Part shown: piece after piece, positions 6,308 to 60,663 of the stretch
How positions within the stretch are numbered: position 1 is the stretch's first letter
Layout of the letters: each line of letters starts with the position of its first letter
Assembly (NCBI GenBank): GCA_973895155.1
Contig: OZ316892.1
Span: 21,267,619 to 21,331,618 of the forward strand
Direction: 5' to 3'
DNA: 64,000 bases
Source: Marsupella aquatica
Lineage: Eukaryota > Plantae > Marchantiophyta
Position numbers and translations under genes: made by a program
The notes under the pieces: model-generated
What the model was told of the DNA's origin: nothing
Database searches by the model: none
Seen by the model: only the letters and a program-made list of their open reading frames with translations

Positions 6308-9300
6308 TCAATGAACATCTCCTGGAACGAAATCGTCCACTTCAGACCTTCTCCTCCCATGGGTCTGCCACTTTGCTTGCCCACTCTGATCCCTGATAGG
6401 ATCTGAGTCTGCACTGACAATGCTGCGAAGGGCAGGAACTCGAGTCCCGAGAGTCTTGTAAAGGCGAGCATATCTAGCCCTGATTCCATCAGCTGTCCTG
6501 GCCATGGCTAGGTTAGAGAAGGCTTCAGGAACTCGAGACAAAATTTGCCTTATCTCTTCCAGTGACAGCCCATTCAGGGCGGAAGGCGCAGGAACTACAG
6601 CAACAATCTCTTTGCTGTTCTTATCCCCTAGTTTTGCTACTGCCTTCACTACCAGATCCAAAGTTGGTGTCGCCCCGCACTTAATCACCAACGGTGTTGA
6701 GGTTCCATTATTGAATTGCAATACACTCCACTGCACCACATCACCGTCCATATCTTCAGTTTTGTCCGACAACGCTTCACCAGCATCAATTGATCCTTGC
6801 CTGGTCAAATGATGGTTTCCAAACTCTTGAATAGAGTCCACTGCTTTTTGAACCTCAGCTATGGATTTCTGGGCACAAGCATAGTCAATTGGAAGGAGAG
6901 TTGGCATTCTTTCAGAAAGTGTGCTCATGCGACTTATTAATGACTTCTTCAAGGCATTACTTGGTGGTTTCCCTCTTGCATCTCTCACAATTTCGTCAGC
7001 TTGTTTCAAGATATCCTCCAGAGAGACCAGAGAGGCTACTCGAGCGTCCTCATTGGCAGATGACGGGGTCCGGAAAGGTGAGCCACCCTCTTCTTTAGTC
7101 AAAAGAGCTACGTCAGATCGCATTTGCTGCATGACCTTTCTCCGCTTGTGCTCTACAGATTCAAGGCCAGAACGCAATTGTGCAACTTGAGGTACATCAT
7201 CAGCCTCTTCCGTTGCCAAAGTTGCAGCGACGTCCTTTAGATGCTGTAACTCTGTCGAGTATGTGAGCTTTGTATAATCCGACAGCAACTGTCCGAGGGC
7301 GTCGGTACTAGGTCGTTGGGGCACACCAAGACCAGACATCCATCCATCCATGATTGCAGTAGAAAGCAGCTCAAGCTGCCCCTCAACCACACCATCACTA
7401 CTCATGCCCGCTAGAGGGTCAAAGTTCTGAGATAACCAAGAGCGAATCTGACGTTGAAGTTCACCAGCAGGTGTATGAACGAAGAGGGCAGCAAGTGCTT
7501 TGTTCCCAACTGCATATTGCCTCGCTTCGTCACTAGTCTCCCTGAGTCTTCCTCCGGTCACTGGTTGGGGTGAACCTAACTGATCATTTCCCCTGAACTT
7601 ACCAAAGAATGAGGAGATTTTCGATTTCTTTTCCGAACCAAGATTGACTTTGAACCTTGGCACGTTGTCATCCAGTCCGGACTTAGAGTGAAATACTAGT
7701 GGAGAACGAGCTGGGCTGTCCTCACGACTACTAGGTTTGCGTGTAAGGCTTCCACCTCCAGCTCTTTCAAGAAATCTTTCTACAGGAGGCAGCTGAATAG
7801 ATTGTAGCTCACTAGAGCGAGAGCATAGTGATCTTATGTACAAAATCCGCACCCGTGAGACTAGCATGGTGTCCATGGCTGCTCTGGACTCCATTTTCCG
7901 GATAAAAGTGAAGACAGCATCCCGGATTTCTGCCAGCATCTCATGCTCTCGAGCTGCACCTGCTTTTATCACTGCTGCAAGAACAAGCATAAGGAGTTTA
8001 TTGGCTCCGTCACCAACTGCAGCAGGACTGTCGTACTGATCGGGATTGAAATCCAAAAGAGCTGCACTCAAGTACTCTCCAGCTGGAGTGCTTTTAACAT
8101 TAAGAACAGCAGAGGATCCCGTAGGAACCATTGCGCCAGATGTTGATTCTTGACCCCTCTCCCCAGCAGGACGGCTGCTGCCATTCTCGCTTGAATCCTT
8201 TGCATCTCCACGCTCAGATTCTTTGACAGGAGACTCAGTTGGCTTTGCAGTGAGTCGTTCGAACAGCTTCTCATTCTCTTCGTGAAGCCGTTCAATCAGC
8301 TCATCTCTCTTACTTAACTCTTCCTCCAGTCTCTTATTGAGAGCGGCCGTCTCGGCTACAGCCTGCTTTGCTATTATCAATTCCTCTTCTTGAGCTGGCG
8401 TGTTTGCTGCCACTTTATCCACCTCCTTGGACTTCTCTTCTTCGGAAGCTTTCTGCAAGGCGTTCAGTAGGATCAAGCATTGACTGTCAGCCTCTTTCAA
8501 AGATTTCTCCAGCCTTGCATTCTCCTCTTCAAGCCTCGTGAGTTCACTTAGTTTCTCCGCCAACCCTTCACCGCCATTGTCATCCTCTAGGCTTTTCGGT
8601 TTATTGCGAGCATGAACTCCAAAGTTGACAGATGCCAACGTCTCAGGCAGGTCTATAGCGCATGGGCACACGTTCACAATGAGGACAGTCTTCGCATCTC
8701 CACCGACAGAGTCAGCAAGTACACTCGTCAACAACGAATTCCCATATGGAGGCTCATCTTTAGCAGCCACTGCTGCAAGGACATCACCGAGAGCTGCCAA
8801 CGTGGCTTCTACGTTCAGGTGGTCATCACTTGCTGGCAGATCCACGAAAGAGACTTTACTGTGATACTTCTCTCGCAGAAGGGTGTTGACATACTGAATG
8901 TGGATTGTCAAAAGGACAGAGCTGCCACTATCCTGGTAAGAGTAATTGTCGCCCATCCGTTTCCTCGCCCCGTTGTCAAAATATCTAGCGAAATCTCTGA
9001 CGTTGTCGATCTTCTCTCCCACAAGTTTCAACTGACTAGCATCGCCCATTTCCACGGCTGTTGCTCTATCTGAACCTGGTGCATTTGAGAGCAAATCTCT
9101 AACCTTGTCATCGTGCAATTCCACCATTGTCATGTGAAAGATTGTCCTTGCTGCCGGGGATGCATCAGCACTGGACAGATGGAATAGCTCCTCAACAGCT
9201 CTCAAGATAATGCCAGGATCCCCACTCGTTCCTTCAAGGGTGTACGTCTTCCCTGCTCCTGACTGACCGTAGGCGAATAAAGACACGTTGTTGCCATCCA

Positions 9301-9919
9301 GAGCGGACTGAATCGTGGGTTGGACATCATTGAAGATGTCTTCCTGCCCAACATGTGGAGCATAGACCCGGTCGAACTCGAATTGCTTTTCCGTGGCACC
9401 AGTCTTCCCTGAAGAAGGGATCCTCAGCCGAATCATGGAGTCATTGGGGAAAGAAGTTATCACCGTACCTTCCTCTTCGAATTCGGGTCGCACTCGACAG
9501 AACACTCGCCCATTGCCTTTCCCGGCCAAAAGCTTGTTCAACAGCTTCTTCCTCTCATTTTTCAGAGGGGTGACGCGAGCTTCCCACTCGACCGCTACTT
9601 GGTCAAGTTTGCGGGCTTTCTCCGAAAGGACACCGAGATATCTCGTGGCTCTGGTTATCTTTACAGACGAATACTCCTGCAGATCACTGGCTTCCTGTCT
9701 CAGCTCCAGACACTCCAGACGAGCGCTAGAAAGCCTGTCCCTAAGGGCCAAGATTTTATTCGTAACACCGGGAGGAAACGATTTCTGGCCAGACTTTCGA
9801 GTGGATTGACTCTTCATGTCGTTAGTTTTATCACTAGACAGCTGATAGTCGGGCTTCTGCCGAGGCTCCCATGACGTCGAGTTCATGCTCCAAGAATTCC
9901 TCAAACCTGCTTCGGCCAT
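6308..9919 (-). CDS. KAC: Kinesin-14 KAC/KCA-family protein (kinesin-like protein for actin-based chloroplast movement), intronless CDS, 1203 aa
   Basis: Single ORF. N-terminal CLELRQEASDLQEYS..TRYLGVL coiled coil, motor domain with P-loop GQSGAGKT, LEEELSKRDELIERLHEENEKLF, and the KAC C-terminal domain (VKSTPAGEYL, ANKLLMLVLAAVIKAGA, LFVHTPAGELQRQIRSWL, QLELLSTAIMDGWM, LAMARTADG.RARYARLY). Confidence 0.95.
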   Translation of the reverse strand: MAEAGLRNSWSMNSTSWEPRQKPDYQLSSDKTNDMKSQSTRKSGQKSFPPGVTNKILALRDRLSSARLECLELRQEASDLQEYSSVKITRATRYLGVLSEKARKLDQVAVEWEARVTPLKNERKKLLNKLLAGKGNGRVFCRVRPEFEEEGTVITSFPNDSMIRLRIPSSGKTGATEKQFEFDRVYAPHVGQEDIFNDVQPTIQSALDGNNVSLFAYGQSGAGKTYTLEGTSGDPGIILRAVEELFHLSSADASPAARTIFHMTMVELHDDKVRDLLSNAPGSDRATAVEMGDASQLKLVGEKIDNVRDFARYFDNGARKRMGDNYSYQDSGSSVLLTIHIQYVNTLLREKYHSKVSFVDLPASDDHLNVEATLAALGDVLAAVAAKDEPPYGNSLLTSVLADSVGGDAKTVLIVNVCPCAIDLPETLASVNFGVHARNKPKSLEDDNGGEGLAEKLSELTRLEEENARLEKSLKEADSQCLILLNALQKASEEEKSKEVDKVAANTPAQEEELIIAKQAVAETAALNKRLEEELSKRDELIERLHEENEKLFERLTAKPTESPVKESERGDAKDSSENGSSRPAGERGQESTSGAMVPTGSSAVLNVKSTPAGEYLSAALLDFNPDQYDSPAAVGDGANKLLMLVLAAVIKAGAAREHEMLAEIRDAVFTFIRKMESRAAMDTMLVSRVRILYIRSLCSRSSELQSIQLPPVERFLERAGGGSLTRKPSSREDSPARSPLVFHSKSGLDDNVPRFKVNLGSEKKSKISSFFGKFRGNDQLGSPQPVTGGRLRETSDEARQYAVGNKALAALFVHTPAGELQRQIRSWLSQNFDPLAGMSSDGVVEGQLELLSTAIMDGWMSGLGVPQRPSTDALGQLLSDYTKLTYSTELQHLKDVAATLATEEADDVPQVAQLRSGLESVEHKRRKVMQQMRSDVALLTKEEGGSPFRTPSSANEDARVASLVSLEDILKQADEIVRDARGKPPSNALKKSLISRMSTLSERMPTLLPIDYACAQKSIAEVQKAVDSIQEFGNHHLTRQGSIDAGEALSDKTEDMDGDVVQWSVLQFNNGTSTPLVIKCGATPTLDLVVKAVAKLGDKNSKEIVAVVPAPSALNGLSLEEIRQILSRVPEAFSNLAMARTADGIRARYARLYKTLGTRVPALRSIVSADSDPIRDQSGQAKWQTHGRRRSEVDDFVPGDVH

Positions 9920-41590: not shown

Positions 41591-44500
41591 CAGCGTATTT
41601 TTAAAACTTGTGCGAAAATTTGCCAAATTCCACCTCCAGGTGGAGGCTTCGCCATATTCGGCGAACATTCGCCAGCAAATTTAGCGGCGATTCGCCGCTC
41701 TTCCACTTCCGGTGCACCGGGGTTCGCCAGAACATGCGTGGTAGGGCCAGCGGTGATCGCCACTTGGATCCACCACTCCCTGCCTGGCAATCGCCAGAAA
41801 ATTTAGGAGTCATTCAGGGAAAATCGCCACCGTTCCCACTTATCAGGGATGAACCTTCGCCAGCGATGTGCTTCGCAGGACTTAGGGTTAGGCAGGTTCG
41901 GGCAGGCACCTGGGGGTTGTGCATTGTCAAAGGATTTTGGTGTATTCTTTCATTTCTTGCCTCCTTTCCATCCCTCTCGGCGGGCCGTCAGGACAAGTTA
42001 TGTTGATACATTTTCTTTGTAGTTTTCCTGAAAATGTCAAGCCAATGTTGTCTTTCTTGCGTCTCCTTCTTTATGGCATGTTGGCTGGCGCGAGTTTGGA
42101 AATTGCGCGTGCTCTCGATAAGCTGACAGCCACCACTACCAGAGGCGGGAGTCTTGAATTTGTATGGCAGATGGCAGCGATGCGGGAGCACACATCTTGC
42201 TGCAACCATCCTCTATTTGAACAGGGGGTTTTCTTTCTTTCTCACAGTTTTTCATTGAATGTTTTGCTTTCAGAACTCCTGCTGCTAGCAACATCTTGTT
42301 GCTTCATCCAAGTTCTGATTTGGTCATTCTGTTTGTGAGAGACTGAGGCTTACGCAGTGCATTGTTTCAGTTTGATTTTTGCAATTTACATCAGCAACAT
42401 CTCGTTGCCATCTTCTGCTCCATCATGGCAATGACTAAGGCAAAGTTGAAGGCAGCACAACGTGCTGGCCTCCCAAATAACCTCATGGTGAAGTATTTTC
42501 TTATTAATCGACTTCAAGCCTTGCAATCCCAATGGCACCCCTGTCTTTCTTGGCTCAGGATCATCATCTGGTGCTGCGGGACCTGCAGAGGATGAGGTTG
42601 TCACTCATGTAGGAGAGCCCATTGGTGTCGGATCTGACGACTCTGCTGTGGTTGAAGAGTTGGGAGAGGAGGTGGTGAAGAAGAGAAAAAGAAGCTATGA
42701 GATGAAGAGGAACTTCCAACCGGGATGGGCGGCTATCCATCCTTGGGCTGAGGCTGCCACTCTTAACATGGAGGGGGAGGTTACTCAAGTGCATTGCACT
42801 ATTTGTACAAAGATTGAAGGGAGGGAGAAACTGTATGTTCCAAAGATTGATGGTCTTTGGAAGCATGCAGGGAGGAAACGTGCAAAATGCGCCATGGTGG
42901 TTCGGGGCCAAAAGGTTGCAAAGGGCGAGTTCTATTTCTCGGGCTCGACCCAGCACGAGAAGAATGAGAAGTTGTTGCTGCATCGTCCCCAGGACCCTGT
43001 CCATCAACAAATGCAGGTCGCAATGTGTGCTGAGAGGAGAAGAAAACTTGTGTAGTTTACTCTTCTTTTTATGTTGCTGACATTGGGTCGCCCGATGAAT
43101 GATTACGAAGTCATGGCGAAGCTGTTTCACCAGCTTAGAGTTCCTGATACTCCAACAACGCATTGGAGTGTGAATGCGGGTTGGGGCATGGCAGAGAGCA
43201 TTTTTCACATGGTGAAGCTCAAGACCAGGGAGACTTGTTTCTCTGCACGGTATCTCTCTGTCTCAGCTGATGAGGTAACTACTATCAACAATCAGTCTTG
43301 GCTTAGTGTCCATGTGTACCTCACAAAGAAATGGGAAAGGATTCCTTTCCTTCTTTCGTTAACAAAACTTGAATCTGGAGCTGATGCTGAAGCCATCACA
43401 GCCGTGGTGAAGGAGTCTCTCACTGGAGATTGTGGGAATCTGGCCGGGATGGAGTGAGGTGGCCACTAAGCTTGTTAGTTTTGGAGCTGATGGAGCTGCT
43501 GTCTTCCAAGGCCATCGAAGTGGTGTGTTGGCTCGGATGCATCGTGCTTATGCTCCCTTCATGACTGGCCTGCATTGTTGCGCTCACCGGACTAATATAT
43601 GTGTGGAGAAGTTGGATTCTTTGCCAGTGGTCGGGAAGATTGAGAATCTTGTAACCAATTTACATTCCTATTTTGCACATAGTCCGAACGCCAACTGGAG
43701 TTCAAACAGCTAGCAGAGGACCTGGAGACCGAGGGATTGAAGATCCAACGGAACCACAAGACCCGTTGGATATCATTGTTATCACCGTTGCAGAGTGTCT
43801 TGCGTGAATACAAGACACTAGTGGTACAAATGTCCTCTGATGTTGCCACTCTCATGACAGCAAAGTCTAATGCTGCTTTGCTCTTGGACCTTGAGACTTT
43901 CCTATCTTTGCCGTGTCTGTTGCCTTTGTTAAAGTCTGTGGATAATCTCATCCGGTTTGCACAGTCTCGTAATGTTATGATCCAAGACTACATATATCAA
44001 TGCAGTCAAAGTTTGTCAAGCTGAGCTTCATTGCTACTATGTGGATTTGATGACCTCATTCAGACCAGGTGTATTTGCTCCTTTTCAAGAGATTGTATCC
44101 AACCGGTCATACACTATAAGTCATGAGTGGATGACTGACTTGGAGACGAGTGTGGAATACCTTTCCTTTCGAATTGCAGATCACACGTATCCAACTCATT
44201 GGTTCGATGAAATACATGGCAAACAGTCTGTTGTGACACGACATGATTTTGATCATGTCGTGTATTCTGTGAAGAACCAATGCAAGGAGGCAGCACAGAA
44301 GCTCATAAAGCTTTTTGACACTTGGTTTCCTAACGTTGACCTCTTGAACGCCTTAGGAATAGTGCATCCACAGTATTGGGAGAGAGAGGATGCCGAGGAG
44401 AACTTTGTGTTCTACATGTCTATGATTCGGGAAGCTTTTTGTAAGCCCAAGTCAATGTCAAATGGAGGTGTTGCAGGAGACAAAACCATGGAGATTAGTC

Positions 44501-46365
44501 CAATTCTTGATTACAAAATGCTGGTGGAAGAGCAGAGCTACTTCAAGCTCACAATGGAAGGCAATGCTAGTAAGGTGATGGCAGAGCAGGAGTTCAACCC
44601 AGAGGTAATGAACCCCATGACACGGATGTGGAGGAGGTTGGGAACAAATCCTCTCATTCGAGCTTGGATGGGTGAATGGTTCAAACTTGCAGAAATCACT
44701 GTGGTCATAGTCACAGGGTCAGTTGAAGATGAGAGGATCTTCAGCACACTGTCTTTTGTTAAAAGCAAGCTACGGAATAGATTGGGGTGCCATTTGGATT
44801 GCACGGTACGAATGTTTTCTCAACAATTTTACAGTCTACTAGACTTTCCACTCCAAGATGCAATTACTCATTGGTTAGATGCAGAGAGGCGTGGAGTCAC
44901 TGGTTAGGTGAGTTTAGGAATGTTATTATTGTGTAAATAGATTTGGAATGTGGGATTGCAACAACGATGGATTGAGTGTGATTGGATTTAGAGTATAGAG
45001 CCATAGAGGGGTTAAAATTAGCGGGAATAGGCTAGGGGGTAGGGACTTCGGCTTCTGGAAGGACTGTGAATTTCCACAGTTTGGGGTTCCACACCCCACC
45101 GTTGCGTGTTTAATTGCAAAGGACGACAACGACTAGTCGCAGCATACAAACAGAAGTACCACTTAACGTGAGTGCGACTAGACTAGTTGCGTGCCAGATT
45201 TCAGAAGCACATGTTGTTTGCCCCTCCATCCCCGCCTCCAGCTCCATACAGTATTTAAGCTTTGCTTCAGGTCATGTAATGTCACTTGCAAGAGTTTTGG
45301 CAGTGTACAGGAAGTGAGGAACCCCAGGAATTTGCAAGAGCATCGCAGCAATGGCAAGGCCCAAGTGCTGCATGAGCAGGCGACCTCAGCCAAGCCCCGA
45401 GGCCGATTCGGTGGATGATGTTAAGGAGGAGCCGGAAGTGAGGAGGAGTGAGGAGGAGCCCTCATAGACGACCACACAGAACACGACTCGGGCCTGTGTA
45501 CTTCCGCCATTGAAGCCTGTGTGGAAGGTTAGACCTACTCGGCAGACGAGGAGACAGCCAAGCCCGGACGCAGCATCGAGTGTTGTTGTGATGGCAGATT
45601 GCGAACTTCTTCCGAAGGAGGAGGCAGGAGAGTTAAGTAGGGAGGAGCCCCATCATCAGACCGAGCACATGATGACTCGGGCTTGGGTACTCCCATGGCT
45701 GAAGGCAAGACCAAAGTTTCGAGCCACTGCAGAGATGATGAGGCAGAGGAGAATGGGCCGATAGATAGAGGGCGAAGAAAACAGGCCAATGCGGCCACTA
45801 GCACAATTAGGATTTAGTCTGAATGGAAGCAATCAAGCAAGCTTCCAAGATGAGGCTAATCGTAGCTTATTACAACATTTTGTAGGACTCGACAAGAGCT
45901 TGACGATGGGCCGCAGAAGCCCTGTTTTGTACACATTTTGACAGGCCAATGTGGTGTCTGATCTTATGAATCCAATTTTCCGATTCGGCATTTCCCACAT
46001 CAATTTCTGTGGATTTCAGTGTGCTGCTATGGATCTTATGAATGTTTCGAACCTTTTTGGTTGGAATGTGCTTTTGAGTTCCAATGTCCTGAATGCATTC
46101 GCCATCTCCCGCTACTCGCAGCAATGTGCATTAGCCATGTCGATTACACACAATCTGATTCGCCAGTTTTGTCGACTGTGCTGGACCCGATTCGCCAGTT
46201 ACCACGTTCAGGAAAATATTCATTCACCAGTGGGTTAACCACGTCGGGAACCTGGTTCGCCAGTTAAACCTACTGCCCGTCGCACCCAGTAGCCACCTCC
46301 CCTACTTGAACACTTATGACACTCGCCAGTCTGGCAAAAATTCAAAAACCTTAAAAAATACGTTG
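41591..46365 (+). mobile_element. Full-length hAT DNA transposon (4775 bp), decayed
   Basis: TIRs CAGCGTATTTTTAA / TTAAAAAATACGTTG; perfect 8-bp TSD GTGTAGAG at 41583-41590 and 46366-46373; subterminal TCGCCA motifs at both ends. Confidence 0.95.
42425..44907 (+). pseudogene. hAT transposase (ZNF862/TTF-zinc-finger-like), disrupted
   Basis: KRNFQPGW..HPW..VHCTIC zinc finger, SADEVT, FGADGAAVFQG, HCCAHR (CxxH), TRWIS, and GSVEDERIFS..KSKLRNRL dimerisation domain. In-frame TAG at 43053-43055 and frameshifts near 42510, 43450, 43690 and 43990. Confidence 0.92.
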
Positions 46366-49680: not shown

Positions 49681-51169
49681 CATGGAGCCGATTCCTGAAA
49701 TAAATTTTGTTGACCTATTGCACTAGTTCCCTTAATTTTCTATATAAAATATGTATGATTTTTTCTTGTGGTTAGAGGATCCAAATGTGATCATATGAAT
49801 ATGACATTATCTTTCCCAAAAAGGAGCTAGAACCTTCCCTCCCCTTATGTAAGTTTAAGATCTCCATCCTAAGTTTAGTGTGTATGCTAAGAGTAGGTAG
49901 CATAAGATTCTTCTGAGCAATGTCTGGACTGATTAATTTCGATCTTCTTCAAAGCTAGCTCTTGTGAGGTTTTAATAATCAGCTGCGGTTTTGAGATGTG
50001 TGATCAATCACTTCCCAACATAGAGGTGTTGATGGTATATGCAGAGATACTGCAGTAAGTTCTTTCCATTAATTATTTCAATGGCTTTTGATTGACAACA
50101 TACAATACTTTCAAAAACTTGCAGTCCGATGAAACTCTCAGCTATAACCTAATATTCCACCACAATCAAAACGGAAAACAGCTGATTGAAATTTAGATTA
50201 CAGATTTGTTTATTTTTAAAGTATAAAATAGTTTCGAAATAACCAAATTAAACAAACCCTTTCGTTAAGTCTCTATTTTGTCCTTGCAGAGGATTGAGGT
50301 ACATTAGTATTGGAGTCAGGAGACTCTGATTGTGCCAAACTTACTGTCATGCAACTTCAACAGTTAGAGCATATTGATCTCAATCAATCATGGGCTTGAC
50401 TCTATAAACGCTGGTCCCTGGTCCCATATTCTTGGTCTTCTCTCAGCCCATGGGTCTCTTTGCAAGAGGTGTCTTTTGGGCTGGGTTCCAGGATATCATG
50501 CTCATCCTATATATTCACCTTGACCAGATTAATTTCTGCGGGTGGGTACCCGTACTTTGCACACAAAACATTTAGGTGAGGCAAGGGGAATTTGTGGAGG
50601 CAAGGAAGTAGTTGATGCTAGCAAATGTCCATGCATTTGGCATTATTTAAGTTTTGCTGAGATAGTATCTTCAACAGCTCCATTCTTCTCCAGGCAATGC
50701 TGTTGACCCATTGAGACTGCATGTACGTATCAAGATTGGAATTACATTTGAGCTCCCATCCGCTTATCGGGTAAATTATAGCATATATAATAAGTGTATA
50801 TGGTCTCTTCATTATCATGGCAATTCAAATACAATTCATTGTCTAATAATGCAATGTTAAGTACTCATGAGACCGACCTCACTGCAATGGTCAAATGTAA
50901 AGTCTTTAGATATTGCATCATGAGCCTCACTCACAACTTGTGATGCACTTATTCTAAATTTCTAGATGGACTAATACAATGTGATTCACTTATACAATTT
51001 AGAGACTAATCCTTATAAAGTTGTCCTCGGAAAATAAATCTGCACTATCTGTTCAAGATCTTCACGGAATATGTGAAGTACTGGCAATTGGTGTTGTTCC
51101 CTCCCTTCAATAATGAATGTCCGTAGCGAGATTCGAAAGTCTCGATGAAGCCATCTTCTAGACCCGGCC

Positions 51170-52853
51170 CTAAGCCATCATCTGGACCCATGTTGCTTTG
51201 CTGGGGATTCCGTCGTGGACGAGGAAGAGCATGTAGTAAGCGGCAGGTGCAATGATTACGCTTGGAGGCGCTATTCCAGAGATAGTATACGAATCGCCTC
51301 CAAGAGATACTGGACGTCCAGTGATGGCAAGAACTAGCTGCCGTTGCCCCGGCCTGACTGAAGGCGTGTGTTGTGAAGGGTGCACTGTTCATAACGAGAG
51401 TCACTGTTCCCACTGGAGCCGTGGCGATGGTGAAGTTAAGCGCGAACGCAGTACCATACTTTAGAGTGGCTGGGGCGGATGTAATGCTTGGCCTAGAGGC
51501 ATCATTGGACGAATCCAAGTATGGTGGTGAGAATGCCTCCACTCGAAGCTCTGTGGGAAATGGTCCCGTGAAAGTGTAGAAATGATGGGTGTTGCTGCCA
51601 GCGATAAGAATGCGACCATCGGGAAGAAGATTTGCTGTGGAATGGTACATGCGAGGAATTGTGGTTGGACTCCAAGTGGTGAAACGGGACCCGGCAGTTG
51701 CATTGGGGTTGTAGTTCACCGGACTCAAGCATGGATTGGTCGCGTCACCCCAGCCCTCAGAACCATTTTGTGCCCCGTTTACTATTAATAAAGTCTGATC
51801 GGGAAGCAGGACCATGTCACCCATCGTGCGTGGTGTTGGCATGGTCTCCATAGACCAAGTCGGGGTTGGGTCCGTGGCAACAATACGGCCGCAGGAGTCA
51901 GTGGCTGGATACTGAGCACTCGGGTTCATGAACGCTCCCAGCTGGGCACCACCGCAAACTAGAATCTCAGCTCTCGCATATCCATCCGTGGATCGAAGGG
52001 CCAACATGACAGAGCTCCCCGCAGAAGGGTAGTTGCGAGGACCTCCTGGAAGCGGAGGAAAATTGGATATAGTTTTGGCCGTTGTGTAGTCGTAAAGGAT
52101 GGACAGGTTGTTTGCGAATATGAAAAGATTGCCATTGGGGAGGAGATGCACGTACGGGTACAGATTGTCGTTCTCATGGTCGCTGGTGACTACCAGTAAA
52201 TCAAGAATTGTGGAGTTCGATCCAGCCGGAGGTACGAACTCAACATAGGGAGTCGCACGGCCACCCACCACAATCAGTCGCCCATCAGGCAAGAGCTGGT
52301 TAGTTGAATACCATCGAGGCTGCTGTAGGGATGTAGTTTCGTCCTCCACCCAATCACAGGTTCCATCTGATTCGGGACATGGAGTGAAGCGCCGTATCTT
52401 CGTCAGCCCGTCGAAGTCCCCTCCCGTCTGCACTAGCACTCCACTGGCATCGAACTGACCGGACGAGCACCAAGTATCTGTTGATATGAAGAGAGGGTGA
52501 ACGAGATTGGTATCAGGGTAGAATTCCACCGAATGCGCAGTGCAGTCGTGTTTCAATATGAGGTCGTTTGGATCGTCTCGGCACTTTCCATTGGGCAGAC
52601 TTATGTTTGATGGGCCTATGTCAGTTCTGTCCAGAAAAATGGCCGTGCCAAAATGTGTGATTGCGGTATGCATCGACGCGATTCCTACGTTCTCAGATAA
52701 AAGAGACCAATTGCCCTGCGCGCTCACTCGCGGCAGCATTACAGCGTCCCTCCATAACTGCAACAACACAATGCACACCAAGGCCGCTGCTCATCTATTC
52801 CATCTAACAAGAAGGCTGCCCTTCATCTGCGACTCCGACCAACTGCCCATCAT
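51170..52853 (-). pseudogene. Glyoxal/aldehyde oxidase (GLOX, AA5_1 copper radical oxidase), intronless, two lesions
   Basis: GIASMH, TDTWCSSG, RWYSTNQ, NLYPYVHLLP, RNYPSAGSS, PRMYHS and THAFSQ motifs. In-frame TGA at 52793-52791 after the ATG at 52853. A 4-bp insertion near 51352 shifts the normal GQRQLVL...APAAYYMLFLVHDGIPS tail into another frame. Confidence 0.88.
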
Positions 52854-54234: not shown

Positions 54235-55278
54235 TTATATATATATATCTCTTTGATAGGAAATGCTTTTATAACACCGCATATTTACTGTACTTTTGGT
54301 AACCGATAACCCTAATAGGCCGAAATGGTTTCTTCGTGACCCAAAAGTAATTTATTAGTACTAACAAGAGTTTTGTTAAATGCCTAATACCACTGAAAGG
54401 GTTTTGTTAATATACACATTTACACCGAGCGAAGGTCCCAGGGGACTACTGAAAGGGACTACTGAAAGCATATATATGTATAAGCGCCCTTGGCACCAGT
54501 AGGCTTGTTTAGACTCCTTTCCCGACCTGTCACGGCCACTCCCTTAGTTTCCATTGTAGTAACTCGATCGGCCTACTTTGCAATTCAACCATTGCATGCT
54601 CTCCTGCCAAGTGACTAAGCTAGAGACCAAAGACTTGGATGTCCCTTTGAATTCATTGATCGAGAGCAGCATTATATATACCAAACTGACCAAAGATACA
54701 ACATCTCTAGAGCATGCAAGGATCATTTGTTTAGGTTTTGGTTGAGGCAGATTTTTGTTTAATAAGGAGCTAGCACCTTCAGAGTACGTACGTAACCACA
54801 TCTTCAGATCGGGCTTCAGATTTTTAATTAAGCGTCACCTTCGATCAGAAATCGCTTGGTGGAAAGAGCAACTAGGGTATATATAAGGCTGACCGGATGG
54901 TCCTGTCCTCTACTCGAAAGTAACACCCTCCATCTCCAACCCTGGAATCTAGAATACTATCTCTCGATTAGATTAATTACCACTAACTGGCCTGGACAGT
55001 GTTGGGTTAGTATGAACTGCTTTACTCATTTGGAAAATCACCAGAACAATCTTGGACTTGGGGCCGGGATATAAACCCAAGCTATCCAAGTTCTATTGGA
55101 TATGCCTAAATATATTGAATTTACTCGGGTCCGGCCCCAAGATTCCTAGCTTTAGAGCGCCGGTCTTGATGCAGGATTCCCACACATCTAGTCGCGAAGC
55201 TTCTAATCCTTGTTCATCAGGTTCTGATTCGTCGAATAGCCATCCCTCTATCTTCGCCAGTTGATTTTTCTTCAATTT

Positions 55279-57231
55279 TCAGGCAAGTTTCCGTTGCTTC
55301 CTACAATAATTCTCGAACCAGTATGATACCTGCATTTAAGATTCCAGAATATAAGCTACTCCAGATGACACCCTGCATTTAAAATTCCAGAATATAATTA
55401 AGCTACTCCAGATGACACTGTTGGGGTTTTTCGACAGAGTTGAAGAAAAATTATGCCAGGAGTTGTGCTGGGAAAGTGCGCGCCTTTACTTACTTTTTTC
55501 AAGGTAAGTTTGGCTTCGTTAGCCAGCTGAATTTTCTCCTCCTTAGTTGGCCTTGCATTTGCAGGGTGGGTTTCGACCCATGCTCTGAATAAACACCACG
55601 CAGATTGTCAAGCAGTTGTTCACAGAATGCTACAAGTACAGAGAGATATACAACACAAGTTTAAGTTGCATTTCACTAGCTGGACTAGCGCGCTTCGTAG
55701 TTAGATACTCTACCTGGATAATCAGTGACTATTCAAAACATTGCAAGCTACTAAAGGTTCAACAACTAGAAGCAGAACCAGTACGTCCCTGCCAATTAAT
55801 TACTTAATTGTTACAAGTACTGTCTACTAGCAATGAAGTCAATTAGCTACAGTAGTGAAGCTCTTTTGGTCTTGGTAACGATTTATACTTCAACACATTG
55901 ATTGCATCGTCAGGATGGTGGTTCTGTCGCTTATAGCTGACACCAGCACTGTTTGTGCCCATCCCCCGTTTCTTTTCCCTTTCGTTGCCGAACCAGGTGT
56001 TGACCTACAAGTATTTTCGAAAGCTGAAATTAATAATTGAAGCTGAAATAATCTCTGATAGTTAAAAAACTCGTCATCCAGTGATTTTCAGGTAGCTAAC
56101 AATTCAAAAATTATGGCCCCCTTCTAGTTTTTGAGGTGCACCCAAAGGAAATTAACTTTTACCTGCTTTATTGTGAGCCCAGAGAGCTTCGAAAGCTTGT
56201 AAAGCTGCCTATGGTTGGGATAAGGAGTTTCCTTATCGTAAAAGTTCCTGCAACCAAAGTAGAGAAGTTAAAAATATTGTCTATTTATATTCATCAGAAA
56301 TGCATGCCAGCCAGATAACATCTTTCAAACCCCCAAAAAGTGGAAATTTTGATACTTGCATGAATGATGAGAGCTCGCCAAGTTAGTTAGTATGTTCAAT
56401 CAATTCAAATACATTACGATCATGTAGAGGTGTAAACCGACTCATGGAATATAATCCATAAATGTTACCTCAGGCTCAACACAGCTGTTTTAGAGTGGCG
56501 ATGAATCCTTGTCTGTTGGCAATCGTCGGCTCCCAGGGAGATCCCCTTCCTCGCGGACTTTATTCCGATCATGTCCGGAAGTGCAATATCTTGATCCTTT
56601 TCCCGTGTCTTCTCACATTCGTAGAGACCGCCAGTCATATCTGTTCTATCTGCAACTTTCTCAAACCTTGAGGTCGCTGGAAGTAGATTTTCTTCGGTCT
56701 CCATTTCCCCACCACTATCACTCGTGTTCTTTGGCCAATCCGTTTCCTCCAAAGTGAGGTACTCATCTTGAGGTATGTTATTCTTCCCACACTTGTCCAG
56801 ACTGCCACTCATATCTATTCCATCTGCAACTCCACAACTGCTTCGGGTCTCTGATGGTAGATTTTTTTTGGTCTGCATTTCCCCCTTCAACTCGTGACTG
56901 CTGTCACTCATATCCAGCGATTCAATTTCCTCCACCGTGAGGTAGTCCTCGAAAAGTACAGTATATTCAGGACAGCTTGCATGCCTGCTTGCATGACTAC
57001 CTCCCCGGTGGTCAGCGCCGGTGAAACTCCTGCAGTCGATATGTTGCTTACATGTTCCCATGAATTGAGCATGTCCTTGTCTTGGTCCATCGTGGTGAGC
57101 ACAGAACTTGGCATCTTGCTTTGACCGTCCCATCCACTTGGGTCTTCATATGTTGAGCTTGCCGTGTGCAGATGTACAGAACTCGGAGAAGGGCCCACGT
57201 AGGTCAAATTACCAGCAGAATTGCTGTCCAT
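55279..57231 (-). CDS. Double-homeodomain (TALE-derived) transcription factor gene, intact or recently pseudogenised
   Basis: Exons 57231 or 57133-56469, 56247-56163, 56004-55889, 55584-55494 and 55329-55279, all GT-AG and phase-compatible. HD1 = RIHRHSKTAVLSLRNFYDKETPYPNHRQLYKLSKLSGLTIKQVNTWFGNEREKKR. HD2 = KRQNHHPDDAINVLKAWVETHPANARPTKEEKIQLANEAKLTLKKVSYWFENYCRKQRK. The frame stays open past the TGA at 55281-55279 to a TAG at 55093. Confidence 0.82.
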
Positions 57232-58121
57232 ATTGACTGCAATTCAGATTTCATTGAAATGTTCAGTACACCTTCATATTGACTAGAATGTAAACTTGAA
57301 AATATCAGCTTCCAAGAGTAAATTAGTTCATGCCGCGCGTACGCATATTTTGACTAAAAGCAAGCTACGCTCTGGCACTTGTTGGTGTAGCTTACGTGAA
57401 AGACCAAAAGAATACATACATCGCCTCCCCAACATTGTTTAAGTCAAGAAAAAACACAGTTAGTTGACGACCCACTCAGGACTCAGAATCAGCAAATTGA
57501 CTACTGGCCAAATACGGAACTTGACATTGCTCTCGCAACCAGAGTATCTAAACTCACAACGCCCACCTCGTTGAATGCGCTCCCGAAATGCAACACCAGT
57601 CCTACAGAGTGCAAAGCTCCTCACCAAAATTAAGATGACAGAATGCAGAAGGCAAAATGCTTGAGATGCTGCGAATTGAGTGGGGGCATCCGGCTTAAAT
57701 GAGACAGACCTGCAACCTAGATCAGAAGAAGTCCCAGCAACAATCCCAACCAGTGACTAAGAAAGAGCCTGCCGTTACAATTCTAGTAATGGTAATTAAG
57801 ATAACCCCAGTCACAGTAATACATTGGCTACGAACTTCATGCTGTACCAGCTGTAGGAGTTCTAGACCGGGTTCTAGACGCAATCATCAGGCCTTGAAGC
57901 GCGCCAAGCACTAAGTAATAATCCCATGCCTGCGACTGTTTGATAATAAAGAAGTGGGTATTCCGACCATCTTGGAGTAATGCACCCAAATTAACTACGA
58001 AAGCCCACAGGTACGAGGGTATATCACACTTAGTGTATTTTGACCTCTCCTCTACATGTCGGGTAATTTACCTATTTACAACCACGCCTCTTTCGTCGGG
58101 TGATCCTTAATGTGTTTTGCC

Positions 58122-58597
58122 CCCGGGTATGCAACTCCCCTTTTCATAATAAAAGCAACTTTTTAATTCCTTATAATGGCCTTATATCCTTAGACCATCT
58201 TAGATTTCATTTTAGTCTACTAAAATCTTGTACCTTTCAACTCAAGGAATACAAAAATGTAACTTAAAAAAGAATGAACATATTTTGATGTATAAAAAGT
58301 TGATCAAAACCAAATTATATGGGTTTTTTAATACAAGGGTCTATTGCCAAACTAGCCAGCTTTTTAGGATTTTTATTAAAATTTTAAAAATCTTTTAATA
58401 AAAATTACAACACGTATAGGAATATTTTTTATTTTCGTATGGAAAAAGAAGAGAGCCAAACCTTTTATATGACTTGAAAATTTTTAAAAGGGGAAAACCT
58501 AGGTTTTTTTCAAATCTTAATAATTTTGTATAGCCAACTTTTGAGTCTATATAAAGATGTAGACTTCCTACCTATAATACAAGAGTTGCATACCGAG
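58122..58597 (+). mobile_element. hAT-type MITE of about 475 bp (TIR CCCGGGTATGCAACTC), copy A
   Basis: Ends cccgggtatgcaactc / gagttgcataccgag; flanks tgttttgcc / tgttttacc form a TSD-like pair with one mismatch; closely similar to 59181-59654. Confidence 0.8.
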
Positions 58598-59180
58598 TGT
58601 TTTACCACCATTATCACCCACTGAAGTGTCGTCAACCTACTGCATGCCTCAATACTTTATAAGCGGTATCTTTTAAAGAAGTAAAGGGTTTTATGATGAG
58701 TCTCAAATGTATTTTAGAAATGACTCAAGGTTTTTTTTTAATGTAAGGAAAATTATTTATTGTACTTTTCAAGGGTATTAGTTTTAAATTTGCAATATGA
58801 AAACTAATAAGGGGTATAAGTATGTAACATGTAAGTGTTCACAGGGGTATTAAGCATTTTAGCCTAAGTGATTCCCCAGGGTGCATGCCCAGGGAGTTGA
58901 GTACTTGGGGGCAAGGTCAACAGCTGATTAGCTTTTAATTTGAGATATTCAATCCTATTGAGAAATTGGAGGCTGCTCCTATGGAACACTGCAAAAAATC
59001 AAAGTCATATAAACCACTACCCATCTTTGAAAGAAGAGAAGGTTAGGATATAAAGTTGTTGGATTGTTTTAAATTTTTTTTTTACAATTGTAATAAAATC
59101 CAACCTAAAATGCCAGTTAGTTTAGTTGGAGAACCCTCTATAAAGAAAACCATATAATTTGGTGTTGATCAAGTCTTCCC

Positions 59181-59654
59181 CCCGTGTATGCAACTTCCCT
59201 TTTTATAAATCAAGTTTTTAATTCCTTATAATGACCCTATATCCTTAGACCATCTTAGATTTCATTTTAGTTTACTAAAGTCTTGTACCTCTCAACTCAA
59301 GGAATCCAAAAATGTAACTAAAAAAAAATTCCGAATATGTTTTGATGTATAAAAAGTTGATCAAAACCAAATTATATGACTTTTTTTTAATACAGGGGTC
59401 TACAGCCAAACTAGCCAGCTTTTTAGGATTTTTATTAAAAATTTAAAAATCTTTAATAAAAACTACAACATGTATAGGAATATTTTTTAATTTCATATGG
59501 AAAAAGAAGAGAACGAAACCTTTTATATGACTTGAAATTTTTTAAAAGTGGAAAACCCAGGTTTTTTCAAATTTTAATAATTTTGTATAGCCAACTTTTT
59601 AGTCCATATAAAAATGTAGACCCCTGCCAATTATACAAGAGTTACATACCCGGG
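59181..59654 (+). mobile_element. hAT-type MITE, copy B, nested in an inverted older copy of the same family
   Basis: Ends cccgtgtatgcaac / gagttacatacccggg; 8-bp TSD GTCTTCCC at 59173-59180 and 59655-59662; the host copy spans about 59050-59880 in opposite orientation. Confidence 0.85.
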
Positions 59655-60663
59655 GTCTTCCCACATCAAAACATATACATTTTGTTTTTCTATATTGGGT
59701 TTGATCAAGACTTTACACATGATCAGAACATAATTCAAGGTTTTTCTTAATGTACATTTTTAATTCCTTGAGTTCAGAGGTACAAGAGTGTAGTTAGAAT
59801 AAGATGACATGGTCAATTGGATATAAGGCCATTATAAGGAAATTAAACCTTGCCTATAACAGGGGAGTTGCAAACCCCAGATTTTGTCCCTTGATTTGAC
59901 ATCTTGCCAACCACCTTAAAGCCAATACCAGGCAAGCTCCAAGCATTTCAAAATTTGACACCAGTAATTTATTTTTTTACTTCTGTGACTGAGTCAAAAT
60001 TTTCAAACAATTGTCTCTAGTGAGAAACTAAACTCTTTACCCAGGCAACCTGTCCAATTAATTATAGGTAAGTTGGGAATAGCAATTTAGGCTGCACAAG
60101 GTAAAGCAATTTGTTGGACGTACTCTAGCTCTGGGAAACGTGTGGCTCTAGTCAGTACTATTTCATCAATCAAGTCATCAGTCTGTCAAACTCCCTTGGG
60201 GAGACTAGAAGTTTTGTCTCTTGTCAGCGCCACATCCCTTCAATACCATCATTTCTCAACATTACATGTACCTGAGCTGCTGCCAGGGTACTTTATAAGG
60301 AGGAATTGTACGATGCGAGGAAACAGGAGATTTTGCTAGCGAGGCAACATTGTTAGCGAAGCATTCTGGCGGATAAATTTCTCTCACATTCCACGAAAAC
60401 AATGCCAAAACAGTATCAATTTTCCACCTCTTACAATAATGAAAAGAATATGACAATGAAAAATCCTGCATTATTTTCATAAGTATTCCATACTTGAGCC
60501 ACACACGTTTTAATCATCTAAAAAGGATCACCAAAACTAGAAACTCCCATCAAAATATGGAACCTCTTTACATTGAAAGTGTGGATCGCCAACAACTTCA
60601 AGACAGAAAAACGGTAAGAGTCGACCTCGACCAGTACATCCAGTCCTACTTACTCTTACTTGT

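What the first reader, a model, noticed from the sequence alone, without database searches (positions are those of the whole stretch)
55093..57236. Hidden spliced gene encoding two tandem homeodomains (TALE-derived double homeobox) in a plant
Seen in sequence: five minus-strand exons, mostly too short to show in the ORF track, splice in frame into two consecutive homeodomains. HD2 has the TALE three-residue loop (LKAWVETHPANARPTKEEK) and helix 3 VSYWFENY. HD1 has a one-residue loop extension with PYP (LRNFYDKETPYP) and helix 3 VNTWFGNER. Both HDs have introns at identical positions: phase 2 just after helix-1 Leu16, and phase 0 before Val45. This points to internal duplication of one ancestral homeobox. 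Established knowledge: plant KNOX and BELL TALE proteins have a single HD with WFIN and act in zygote/sporophyte activation, while tandem-HD factors are best known from animals (e.g. DUX). Here residue 50 is Gly in HD1 and Glu in HD2, and I see no KNOX, ELK or POX domain. Inference: a lineage-specific double-homeodomain factor that may recognise a bipartite site as one polypeptide rather than as a KNOX/BELL heterodimer.
Basis: partly seen in the sequence, partly recalled or inferred. Interest (0 to 1): 0.88.

Follow-up and report, generated by a model that had tools for sequence, protein, structure and literature searches.

The report
Broken copy of liverwort double-homeobox gene
This is a real five-exon plant gene model with two DNA-binding homeodomains in a row, likely a relative of the multi-homeodomain BELL factors that liverwort gametes use to start embryo development, and the copy in this window is likely disabled by a two-base frameshift that near-identical sister sequences lack.

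Summary
Five minus-strand exons join through four GT-AG introns into two homeodomains (Pfam PF05920 and Meis1/2 hits), each with introns at positions 17[2/3] and 44/45. The novelty claim does not hold: Marchantia BELL2/3/4 ('BELL-gamete') already carry two or three TALE homeodomains from intragenic duplication, have no evident PBC domain and act in zygote activation (PMC8476127). The only close relative found with a homeodomain is a leafy-liverwort protein (Calypogeia fissa, 68% identical over HD1), whose annotation stops before HD2. So the window probably holds a damaged member of a small, recently multiplied family. Membership in BELL-gamete is likely but untested, because no Marchantia sequence could be fetched. 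Unusual points: HD1 has a one-residue loop, residue 50 is Gly/Glu, HD2 lacks Arg53, and the 17[2/3] intron. No RNA run was listed.

The parts
56469..57236 (-). Coding exon 1: acceptor before 57236, ATG at 57231, acidic N-terminal region, then the N-terminal arm and helix 1 of HD1; ends in a phase-2 donor inside codon 17
   Evidence: P0001 ends at the same donor; acidic content 32 D/E against 16 K/R in 137 residues
56962..56963 (-). 2-nt insertion (frameshift). The frame from ATG 57231 stops at 56908 after 107 residues, before any homeodomain
   Evidence: all 4 DNA runs hold contigs lacking 2 nt here (table 4); P0001 switches frame at 56968/56962
56608..56950 (-). Internal repeat of about 58 codons (174-183 nt period) in the acidic N-terminal region
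   Evidence: families D6, D8, D11; also in P0001
56163..56247 (-). Exon 2: HD1 residues 17-44, one-residue loop extension, PYP
   Evidence: PF05920 E 0.0086; 71% identical to C. fissa P0047
55889..56004 (-). Exon 3: HD1 helix 3 (W48 F49 G50 N51 R53), linker of about 6 residues, HD2 arm and helix 1
   Evidence: 44% identical to P0047 over 43 residues
55494..55584 (-). Exon 4: HD2 residues 17-44, full three-residue TALE loop, ARP in place of PYP
   Evidence: PF05920 E 0.00021; Meis hits with the E4+E2 profile
55329..55418 (-). 43-47 nt tandem duplication at the 3' end of intron 4 that makes a second, out-of-frame acceptor at 55373
   Evidence: families D12, D15
55279..55329 (-). Exon 5: HD2 helix 3 (W48 F49 E50 N51 C53) and TGA
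55093..55278 (-). Same frame stays open for 61 more codons after the TGA, so the TGA may be premature
   Evidence: 314 of 20000 shuffles stay open; 4 of the 5 listed sister differences fall on third codon positions; no homeodomain match there
54546..57821 (.). Gene-sized stretch over which 95-98% identical sister sequences lie at about 2.5-5 times the depth of the window-like contigs; the flanks on both sides hold only window-like contigs
   Evidence: tables 2, 7, 8; no terminal repeat or target duplication longer than 6 nt at the edges

Best explanation
The locus encodes two tandem TALE-type homeodomains and is likely a leafy-liverwort relative of the multi-homeodomain 'BELL-gamete' factors (MpBELL2/3/4), and the copy in this window is likely non-functional because of a frameshift upstream of both domains. 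An intact sister would make a protein of about 367 residues: an acidic, repeat-containing N-terminal region (inferred activation or partner-binding region) followed by two homeodomains about 6 residues apart. By analogy with Marchantia (inferred, not tested here) it would be made in gametes, mainly sperm, pair with egg-supplied KNOX1 after fertilisation, bring the pair into the pronuclei and switch on zygote genes. The second domain would add DNA contact or stability rather than replace the KNOX partner. Shown: exon structure, two homeodomains, shared introns, the frameshift, a liverwort homologue and sister sequences. Inferred: host lineage, clade membership, expression, partner, and intactness of the sisters' whole reading frame.
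For: Two domains from one ancestor: identical intron pair. The 44/45 intron marks the non-KNOX TALE group in green plants, and the KNOX-type 48[2/3] intron is absent (PMC6219170 passages). The canonical BELL 24[2/3] intron and the POX domain are absent. The nearest homeodomain relative is from the leafy liverwort Calypogeia fissa (68% over 56 residues of HD1; SH-aLRT 99 pair; taxonomy), and BELL-gamete genes with 2-3 domains occur throughout liverworts. As described for that clade, the C-terminal domain keeps the full TALE loop and the upstream one has lost part of it. Weak hint: an overlapping primer and guide in PMC8476127 supplement 4 read ARHSQ near the MpBELL2 start, like the RHS at positions 7-9 of HD1 here and in C. 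fissa; RHS occurs in 3 of the 130 stored proteins; the register is inferred. Frameshift. Purifying selection among sisters, weak: 4 of 7 listed exon differences are silent (p about 0.07; 40 of 199 differences were shown).
Against: No Marchantia BELL2/3/4 protein was recognised among the hits: 28 of the 95 profile hits were looked up by name and only one is a land plant, none of the stored proteins starts like MpBELL2 or MpBELL4, and the homeodomain profile search returned only C. fissa (1 of 332 candidates). HD1 and HD2 are only 15 of 61 identical and do not group in the tree (quick tree, 49 of 78 branches open, no plant KNOX/BELL rows). HD2 is not cleanly the better conserved domain: it lacks PYP and Arg53. 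Neither domain has the Ile50 (WFIN) seen in the algal GLX and KNOX rows. The C. fissa record has only one complete domain, so its second domain is inferred from a shared donor site. The window's lineage was not determined directly.
Confidence: 0.6

Rival explanations
1. An independent double-homeodomain factor that arose in leafy liverworts from a separate non-KNOX TALE gene and binds a bipartite site as one chain, DUX-like, without a KNOX partner.
For: No Marchantia hit in three searches. The 17[2/3] intron is not among the positions in the rows seen of PMC6219170 supplement 1 (a small part of 433 rows). Gly50 and Glu50 differ from the usual Ile50, and HD1 has lost two of the three loop residues. 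The W48-to-W48 spacing of 69 residues would let both domains reach DNA (inference). Tandem TALE-like domains arose many times elsewhere.
Against: A multi-homeodomain TALE clade with 'extensive sequence diversity' is already described throughout liverworts, which explains missed hits more simply. The multi-domain MpBELL4 still pairs with KNOX1. HD2 lacks Arg53 in this copy.
Confidence: 0.25
2. The whole sister family is decaying or has become a weak-binding decoy: the domains no longer bind DNA well, and any protein made competes for KNOX or BELL partners, as proposed for the homeodomain-less MpKNOX1A/B.
For: This copy has a frameshift, a duplicated acceptor, Cys53 and a possibly premature TGA. 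Riccia species have lost BELL2/3/4 or keep versions without homeodomains (PMC11923412 passages).
Against: Sisters lack the frameshift. W48, F49 and N51 are kept in both domains. HD1 is 68% conserved with C. fissa while the N-terminal region is about 30%.
Confidence: 0.1
3. The window copy is functional: an extra intron (for example 57051 to 56948) or a downstream start (ATG 56911, overlapping the frameshift stop) bypasses the 2-nt insertion.
For: In-frame GT..AG pairs and in-frame ATGs exist. Marchantia BELL3/4 make short 3' transcripts that still encode homeodomains.
Against: The homologue aligns at 66-68% as coding sequence on both sides of the break, so that stretch is exon. The candidate acceptor is GAG. 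Sisters simply lack the two bases.
Confidence: 0.1

Closest known systems
BELL-gamete clade: MpBELL2 (Mp4g09650), MpBELL3 (Mp8g02970), MpBELL4 (Mp8g07680) of Marchantia polymorpha (PMC8476127)
   Same: Two or more tandem TALE homeodomains from intragenic duplication; no recognisable PBC domain; the C-terminal domain closer to the TALE pattern; liverwort distribution; rapid divergence
   Different: No direct sequence match obtained; here about 250 residues precede the domains (MpBELL2 has only the two domains, MpBELL3/4 are large); one-residue loop in HD1; Gly50/Glu50; recent near-identical sisters; this copy is frameshifted
Calypogeia fissa CAM6111588.1 (P0047), 'unnamed protein product'
   Same: 68% identical over HD1, same one-residue loop, same linker and start of HD2 helix 1, weakly similar acidic N-terminus, ends just after the same splice donor
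   Different: Annotated with one complete domain; Ser50 instead of Gly50; no 58-residue repeat seen
Canonical land-plant BELL (MpBELL1, PpBELL1-4, AtBEL1)
   Same: TALE homeodomain with the 44/45 intron
   Different: Single domain, POX domain and 24[2/3] intron, none of which is present here
Animal DUX4 double homeodomain
   Same: Two homeodomains in one chain
   Different: PRD-class and unrelated in origin (own knowledge); its top rank in the fold search is not meaningful (E 1.7e-3, rmsd 19.5)

Membership tests
Homeodomain fold | Three helices with L16, W48, F49, N51, R53 | tested here: met
   HD1 has all five; HD2 has all but R53.. The C. fissa stand-in folds as three helices at pLDDT about 90 and hits PF00046 at 51 bits
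TALE superclass | Three extra residues between helices 1 and 2 | tested here: inconclusive
   Met in HD2; HD1 has one extra residue but keeps PYP
KNOX | KNOX1/KNOX2/ELK domains and the 48[2/3] intron | tested here: not met
   No Pfam hit in exon 1 or P0001; introns at 17[2/3] and 44/45 (for the rule)
Canonical BELL | POX (SKY+BELL) domain and the 24[2/3] intron | tested here: not met
BELL-gamete (MpBELL2/3/4) | Two or three tandem TALE homeodomains from intragenic duplication | tested here: met
   shared intron pair
BELL-gamete (MpBELL2/3/4) | No discernible PBC or canonical BELL domain | tested here: met
   no Pfam family in exon 1 at E up to 1
BELL-gamete (MpBELL2/3/4) | C-terminal domain most conserved | tested here: inconclusive
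   HD2 keeps the loop and scores 64 against 57 bits but lacks PYP and R53
BELL-gamete (MpBELL2/3/4) | Placement in the BELL-gamete clades of a homeodomain tree (the actual definition) | not testable with these tools
   no MpBELL sequence came back; the paper's alignment is an image
BELL-gamete (MpBELL2/3/4) | Expression in antheridia or eggs; interaction with KNOX1 | not testable with these tools
   no RNA holder listed
PLINC (ZF-HD) | One-residue loop insertion with Met49 and an upstream zinc finger | tested here: not met
   F49 in both domains and no zinc-finger hit (definition from PMC2775110 passage)

The most novel reading that the evidence does not exclude
Leafy liverworts built their own double-homeodomain factor, separately from the Marchantia BELL-gamete genes: one TALE homeobox with a private intron was duplicated, both recognition helices were rewritten (Gly/Ser50, Glu50), and the gene now multiplies and dies in near-identical copies, as DUX genes do in mammals, acting as a single-chain zygote or gamete activator that needs no KNOX partner.
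Probability: 0.2. Interest if true: 0.7.

Novelty: new variant of a known kind. Interest (0 to 1): 0.36.

Why it matters
Multi-homeodomain TALE genes are known in liverworts, so the architecture is no surprise. The value is smaller: it gives a hand-checked gene model for a fast-evolving gamete-factor-like family in the less studied leafy liverworts, shows that automatic annotation drops the second domain (C. fissa record), and suggests recent multiplication and loss of copies. If the family proves separate from BELL-gamete, it would be a second origin of tandem TALE domains in land plants and a test case for whether a double domain can replace the KNOX/BELL heterodimer.

Tried and rejected
No whole genome is held, so paralogues could not be searched in the assembly. 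No RNA holder listed: no evidence on expression. All four runs behave as DNA: no joint over any intron. A closer look at the reads over the homeodomain exons was not obtained, so whether sisters carry Arg53, the duplicated acceptor or the TGA is open. Exon-1 search: 1 hit among 99 candidates. Two-exon word search: 0 of 43. Metagenome scan: 2 loci from 20 stretches, both 12-15 residue chance matches without a homeodomain, rejected. Fold search with the C. fissa stand-in: no match at E up to 0.001; the 45 listed rows are homeodomain-containing entries at E 0.002-0.01. ESM Atlas: best scores 0.78-0.87, homeodomain clusters, leads only. Tree of 81 domains: the careful search did not finish; the quick tree resolves only the HD1-C. 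fissa pair near our rows; domains under 40 bits or 50 residues were left out. No other homeodomain segment in the window. No terminal repeats at the edges of the multi-copy stretch, so no support for transposon capture. A third homeodomain after the TGA: no match. An assembly error as cause of the frameshift is unlikely: in X1 about 16 of 58 depth units lack the deletion, like the window-type depth of 14-16, though that run may be the window's own source. Literature searches found no paper on this leafy-liverwort gene; most subscription papers are not in the library.

Full report
Observation. On the minus strand five exons (57236-56469, 56247-56163, 56004-55889, 55584-55494, 55329-55279) are separated by GT-AG introns of 221, 158, 304 and 164 nt in phases 2, 0, 2, 0, and the join is open from exon 1 to a TGA at 55281. 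Exons 2 and 4 each hit Pfam PF05920 (E 0.0086 and 0.00021), and a profile of the two hits Meis1/Meis2, PBX1 and PKNOX1 structures, best E about 1e-6. The spliced model holds two full domains of 56.7 and 64.2 bits against an HMM of 126 other domains; the best of 500 shuffles gave 5.7 (the references came from a window-derived search). Both domains are cut inside codon 17 and between residues 44 and 45. HD1 has one extra loop residue, PYP, and W48 F49 G50 N51 R53. HD2 has three extra residues, ARP, and W48 F49 E50 N51 C53. The two W48 lie 69 residues apart, a linker of about 6. The domains are 15 of 61 identical.

The ATG at 57231 is not in frame with the domains: that frame stops at 56908 after 107 residues. 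An unnamed homologue (P0001, 246 residues, the only hit among 99 candidates) aligns at 66% in one frame up to 56968 and at 68% in another from 56962, and ends at the same donor as exon 1. All four DNA runs that hold the region have contigs lacking 2 nt at 56962 (table 4), which puts the ATG in frame. In run X1 the deletion form has depth 42 of 58; in X2 and X4 only the deletion form is listed. So this copy carries a +2 frameshift, which may be polymorphic. Further possible lesions: a 43-47 nt duplication in intron 4 creates an upstream acceptor that would destroy helix 3 of HD2; Arg53 is replaced by Cys; and the frame runs open for 61 codons beyond the TGA (314 of 20000 shuffles; 4 of 5 listed sister differences at third positions). 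Whether sisters share these three is open.

Sisters. Between about 54546 and 57821 the runs hold contigs 95-98% identical to the window at about 2.5-5 times the depth of window-identical contigs, while the flanks hold only window-type contigs. The simplest reading is several recent copies elsewhere in the genome. Depth of contigs is not a copy number, and alleles or homeologues with unlike flanks are not excluded. Of the 40 differences shown (of 199), 7 lie in exons 2-4 and 4 are silent (p about 0.07).

Relatives. A search of 1.84 billion representatives with the exon-4/exon-2 profile gave 95 proteins at E up to 0.001. Against the spliced domains one stands out: P0047, 57% over 79 residues and 68% over HD1, where the next hits are at 30-40% over the two domains. 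It is Calypogeia fissa CAM6111588.1, a leafy liverwort. It is spliced at the first two junctions, runs through the linker into HD2 helix 1 and ends just after the donor of intron 3 with the same K-Y read-through as the window, so its second domain was probably missed by the annotation (inferred). It hits PF00046 (51 bits) and PF05920 (36 bits) and folds as a homeodomain. Of the 28 hits looked up by name it is the only land plant; the rest are unnamed, diatom, insect, protist or viral multi-domain proteins. A second profile search returned only P0047 (1 of 332). In a quick tree HD1 pairs with P0047 (SH-aLRT 99) and HD2 is unplaced. The neighbours are plant-type genes (kinesin, glyoxal oxidase). 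The host is therefore likely a leafy liverwort, but this was not shown.

What is known. [quoted passage not shown] Its preprint (section 5 and passages) says the same; the alignment is an image and its supplements were not seen. PMC8478417 (passages and the first part of the discussion) proposes that sperm MpBELL3/4 recruit egg MpKNOX1 to the pronuclei. PMC6219170 (passages and part of supplement 1) gives 44/45 as the intron of the non-KNOX group, 48[2/3] for KNOX and 24[2/3] for canonical BELL; 17[2/3] is not in the rows I saw, but the intron figure (additional file 3) was too large to read. PMC2775110 (abstract, parts of results) gives the 14 plant classes; none of those checked fits. PMC11923412 (passages, supplement passages) reports loss or homeodomain-less BELL2/3/4 in Riccia. 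A primer and guide for MpBELL2 read ARHSQ near its start, like RHS at positions 7-9 of HD1; this is a weak hint with an inferred register.

How it most likely works. An intact sister would give about 367 residues: an acidic N-terminal region with a 58-residue repeat and two closely linked homeodomains. It works like a BELL-gamete factor (inferred): supplied by gametes, pairing with KNOX1, activating the zygote. This copy would yield a 107-residue fragment without a domain, unless a short transcript starts at ATG 56911 or later. Membership in BELL-gamete is likely (about 0.6) but its defining test, the tree, could not be run. The single-chain, partner-free model stays possible (about 0.25) because no Marchantia sequence was recovered and the intron, loop and residue 50 are unusual.

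Verdict. Real gene, accurate anatomy, but tandem TALE domains are already known in liverworts and this copy is probably broken. New variant of a known kind; interest 0.36. Look-ups in the scan's own notes found nothing that bears on it.

Noticed in passing
window 51045-52739 (-): Glyoxal/galactose-oxidase-like gene (PF07250 E 8e-103) has a frame break near 51370; the C-terminal Ig-like part continues in another frame. A second broken gene close by; not checked against reads.
   Followed up: partly
window 6308-9919 (-): A 1203-residue kinesin (PF00225) is one unbroken reading frame with no intron, unusual for a plant kinesin of this size (own knowledge); possibly a retrocopy.
   Followed up: no
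window about 58050-59900: AT-rich repeat just upstream of the gene, with direct copies about 1057 nt apart and many inverted matches; read depth rises to thousands from 58052 on. Looks like a high-copy non-autonomous transposon.
   Followed up: no
proteins P0002-P0011 and others: Many proteins carry 3-10 tandem TALE-like homeodomains with altered helix 3 (WFxxER); one cluster is named as the diatom Cyclotella meneghiniana, most are unnamed. One search listed no paper on such arrays by title.
   Followed up: partly
protein P0021: A two-homeodomain protein annotated from a giant virus metagenome assembly (Hyperionvirus sp.).
   Followed up: no
window 42492-44907 (+): Several broken reading frames that look like a hAT-type transposase remnant by eye; the one frame scanned had no Pfam hit.
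   Followed up: no
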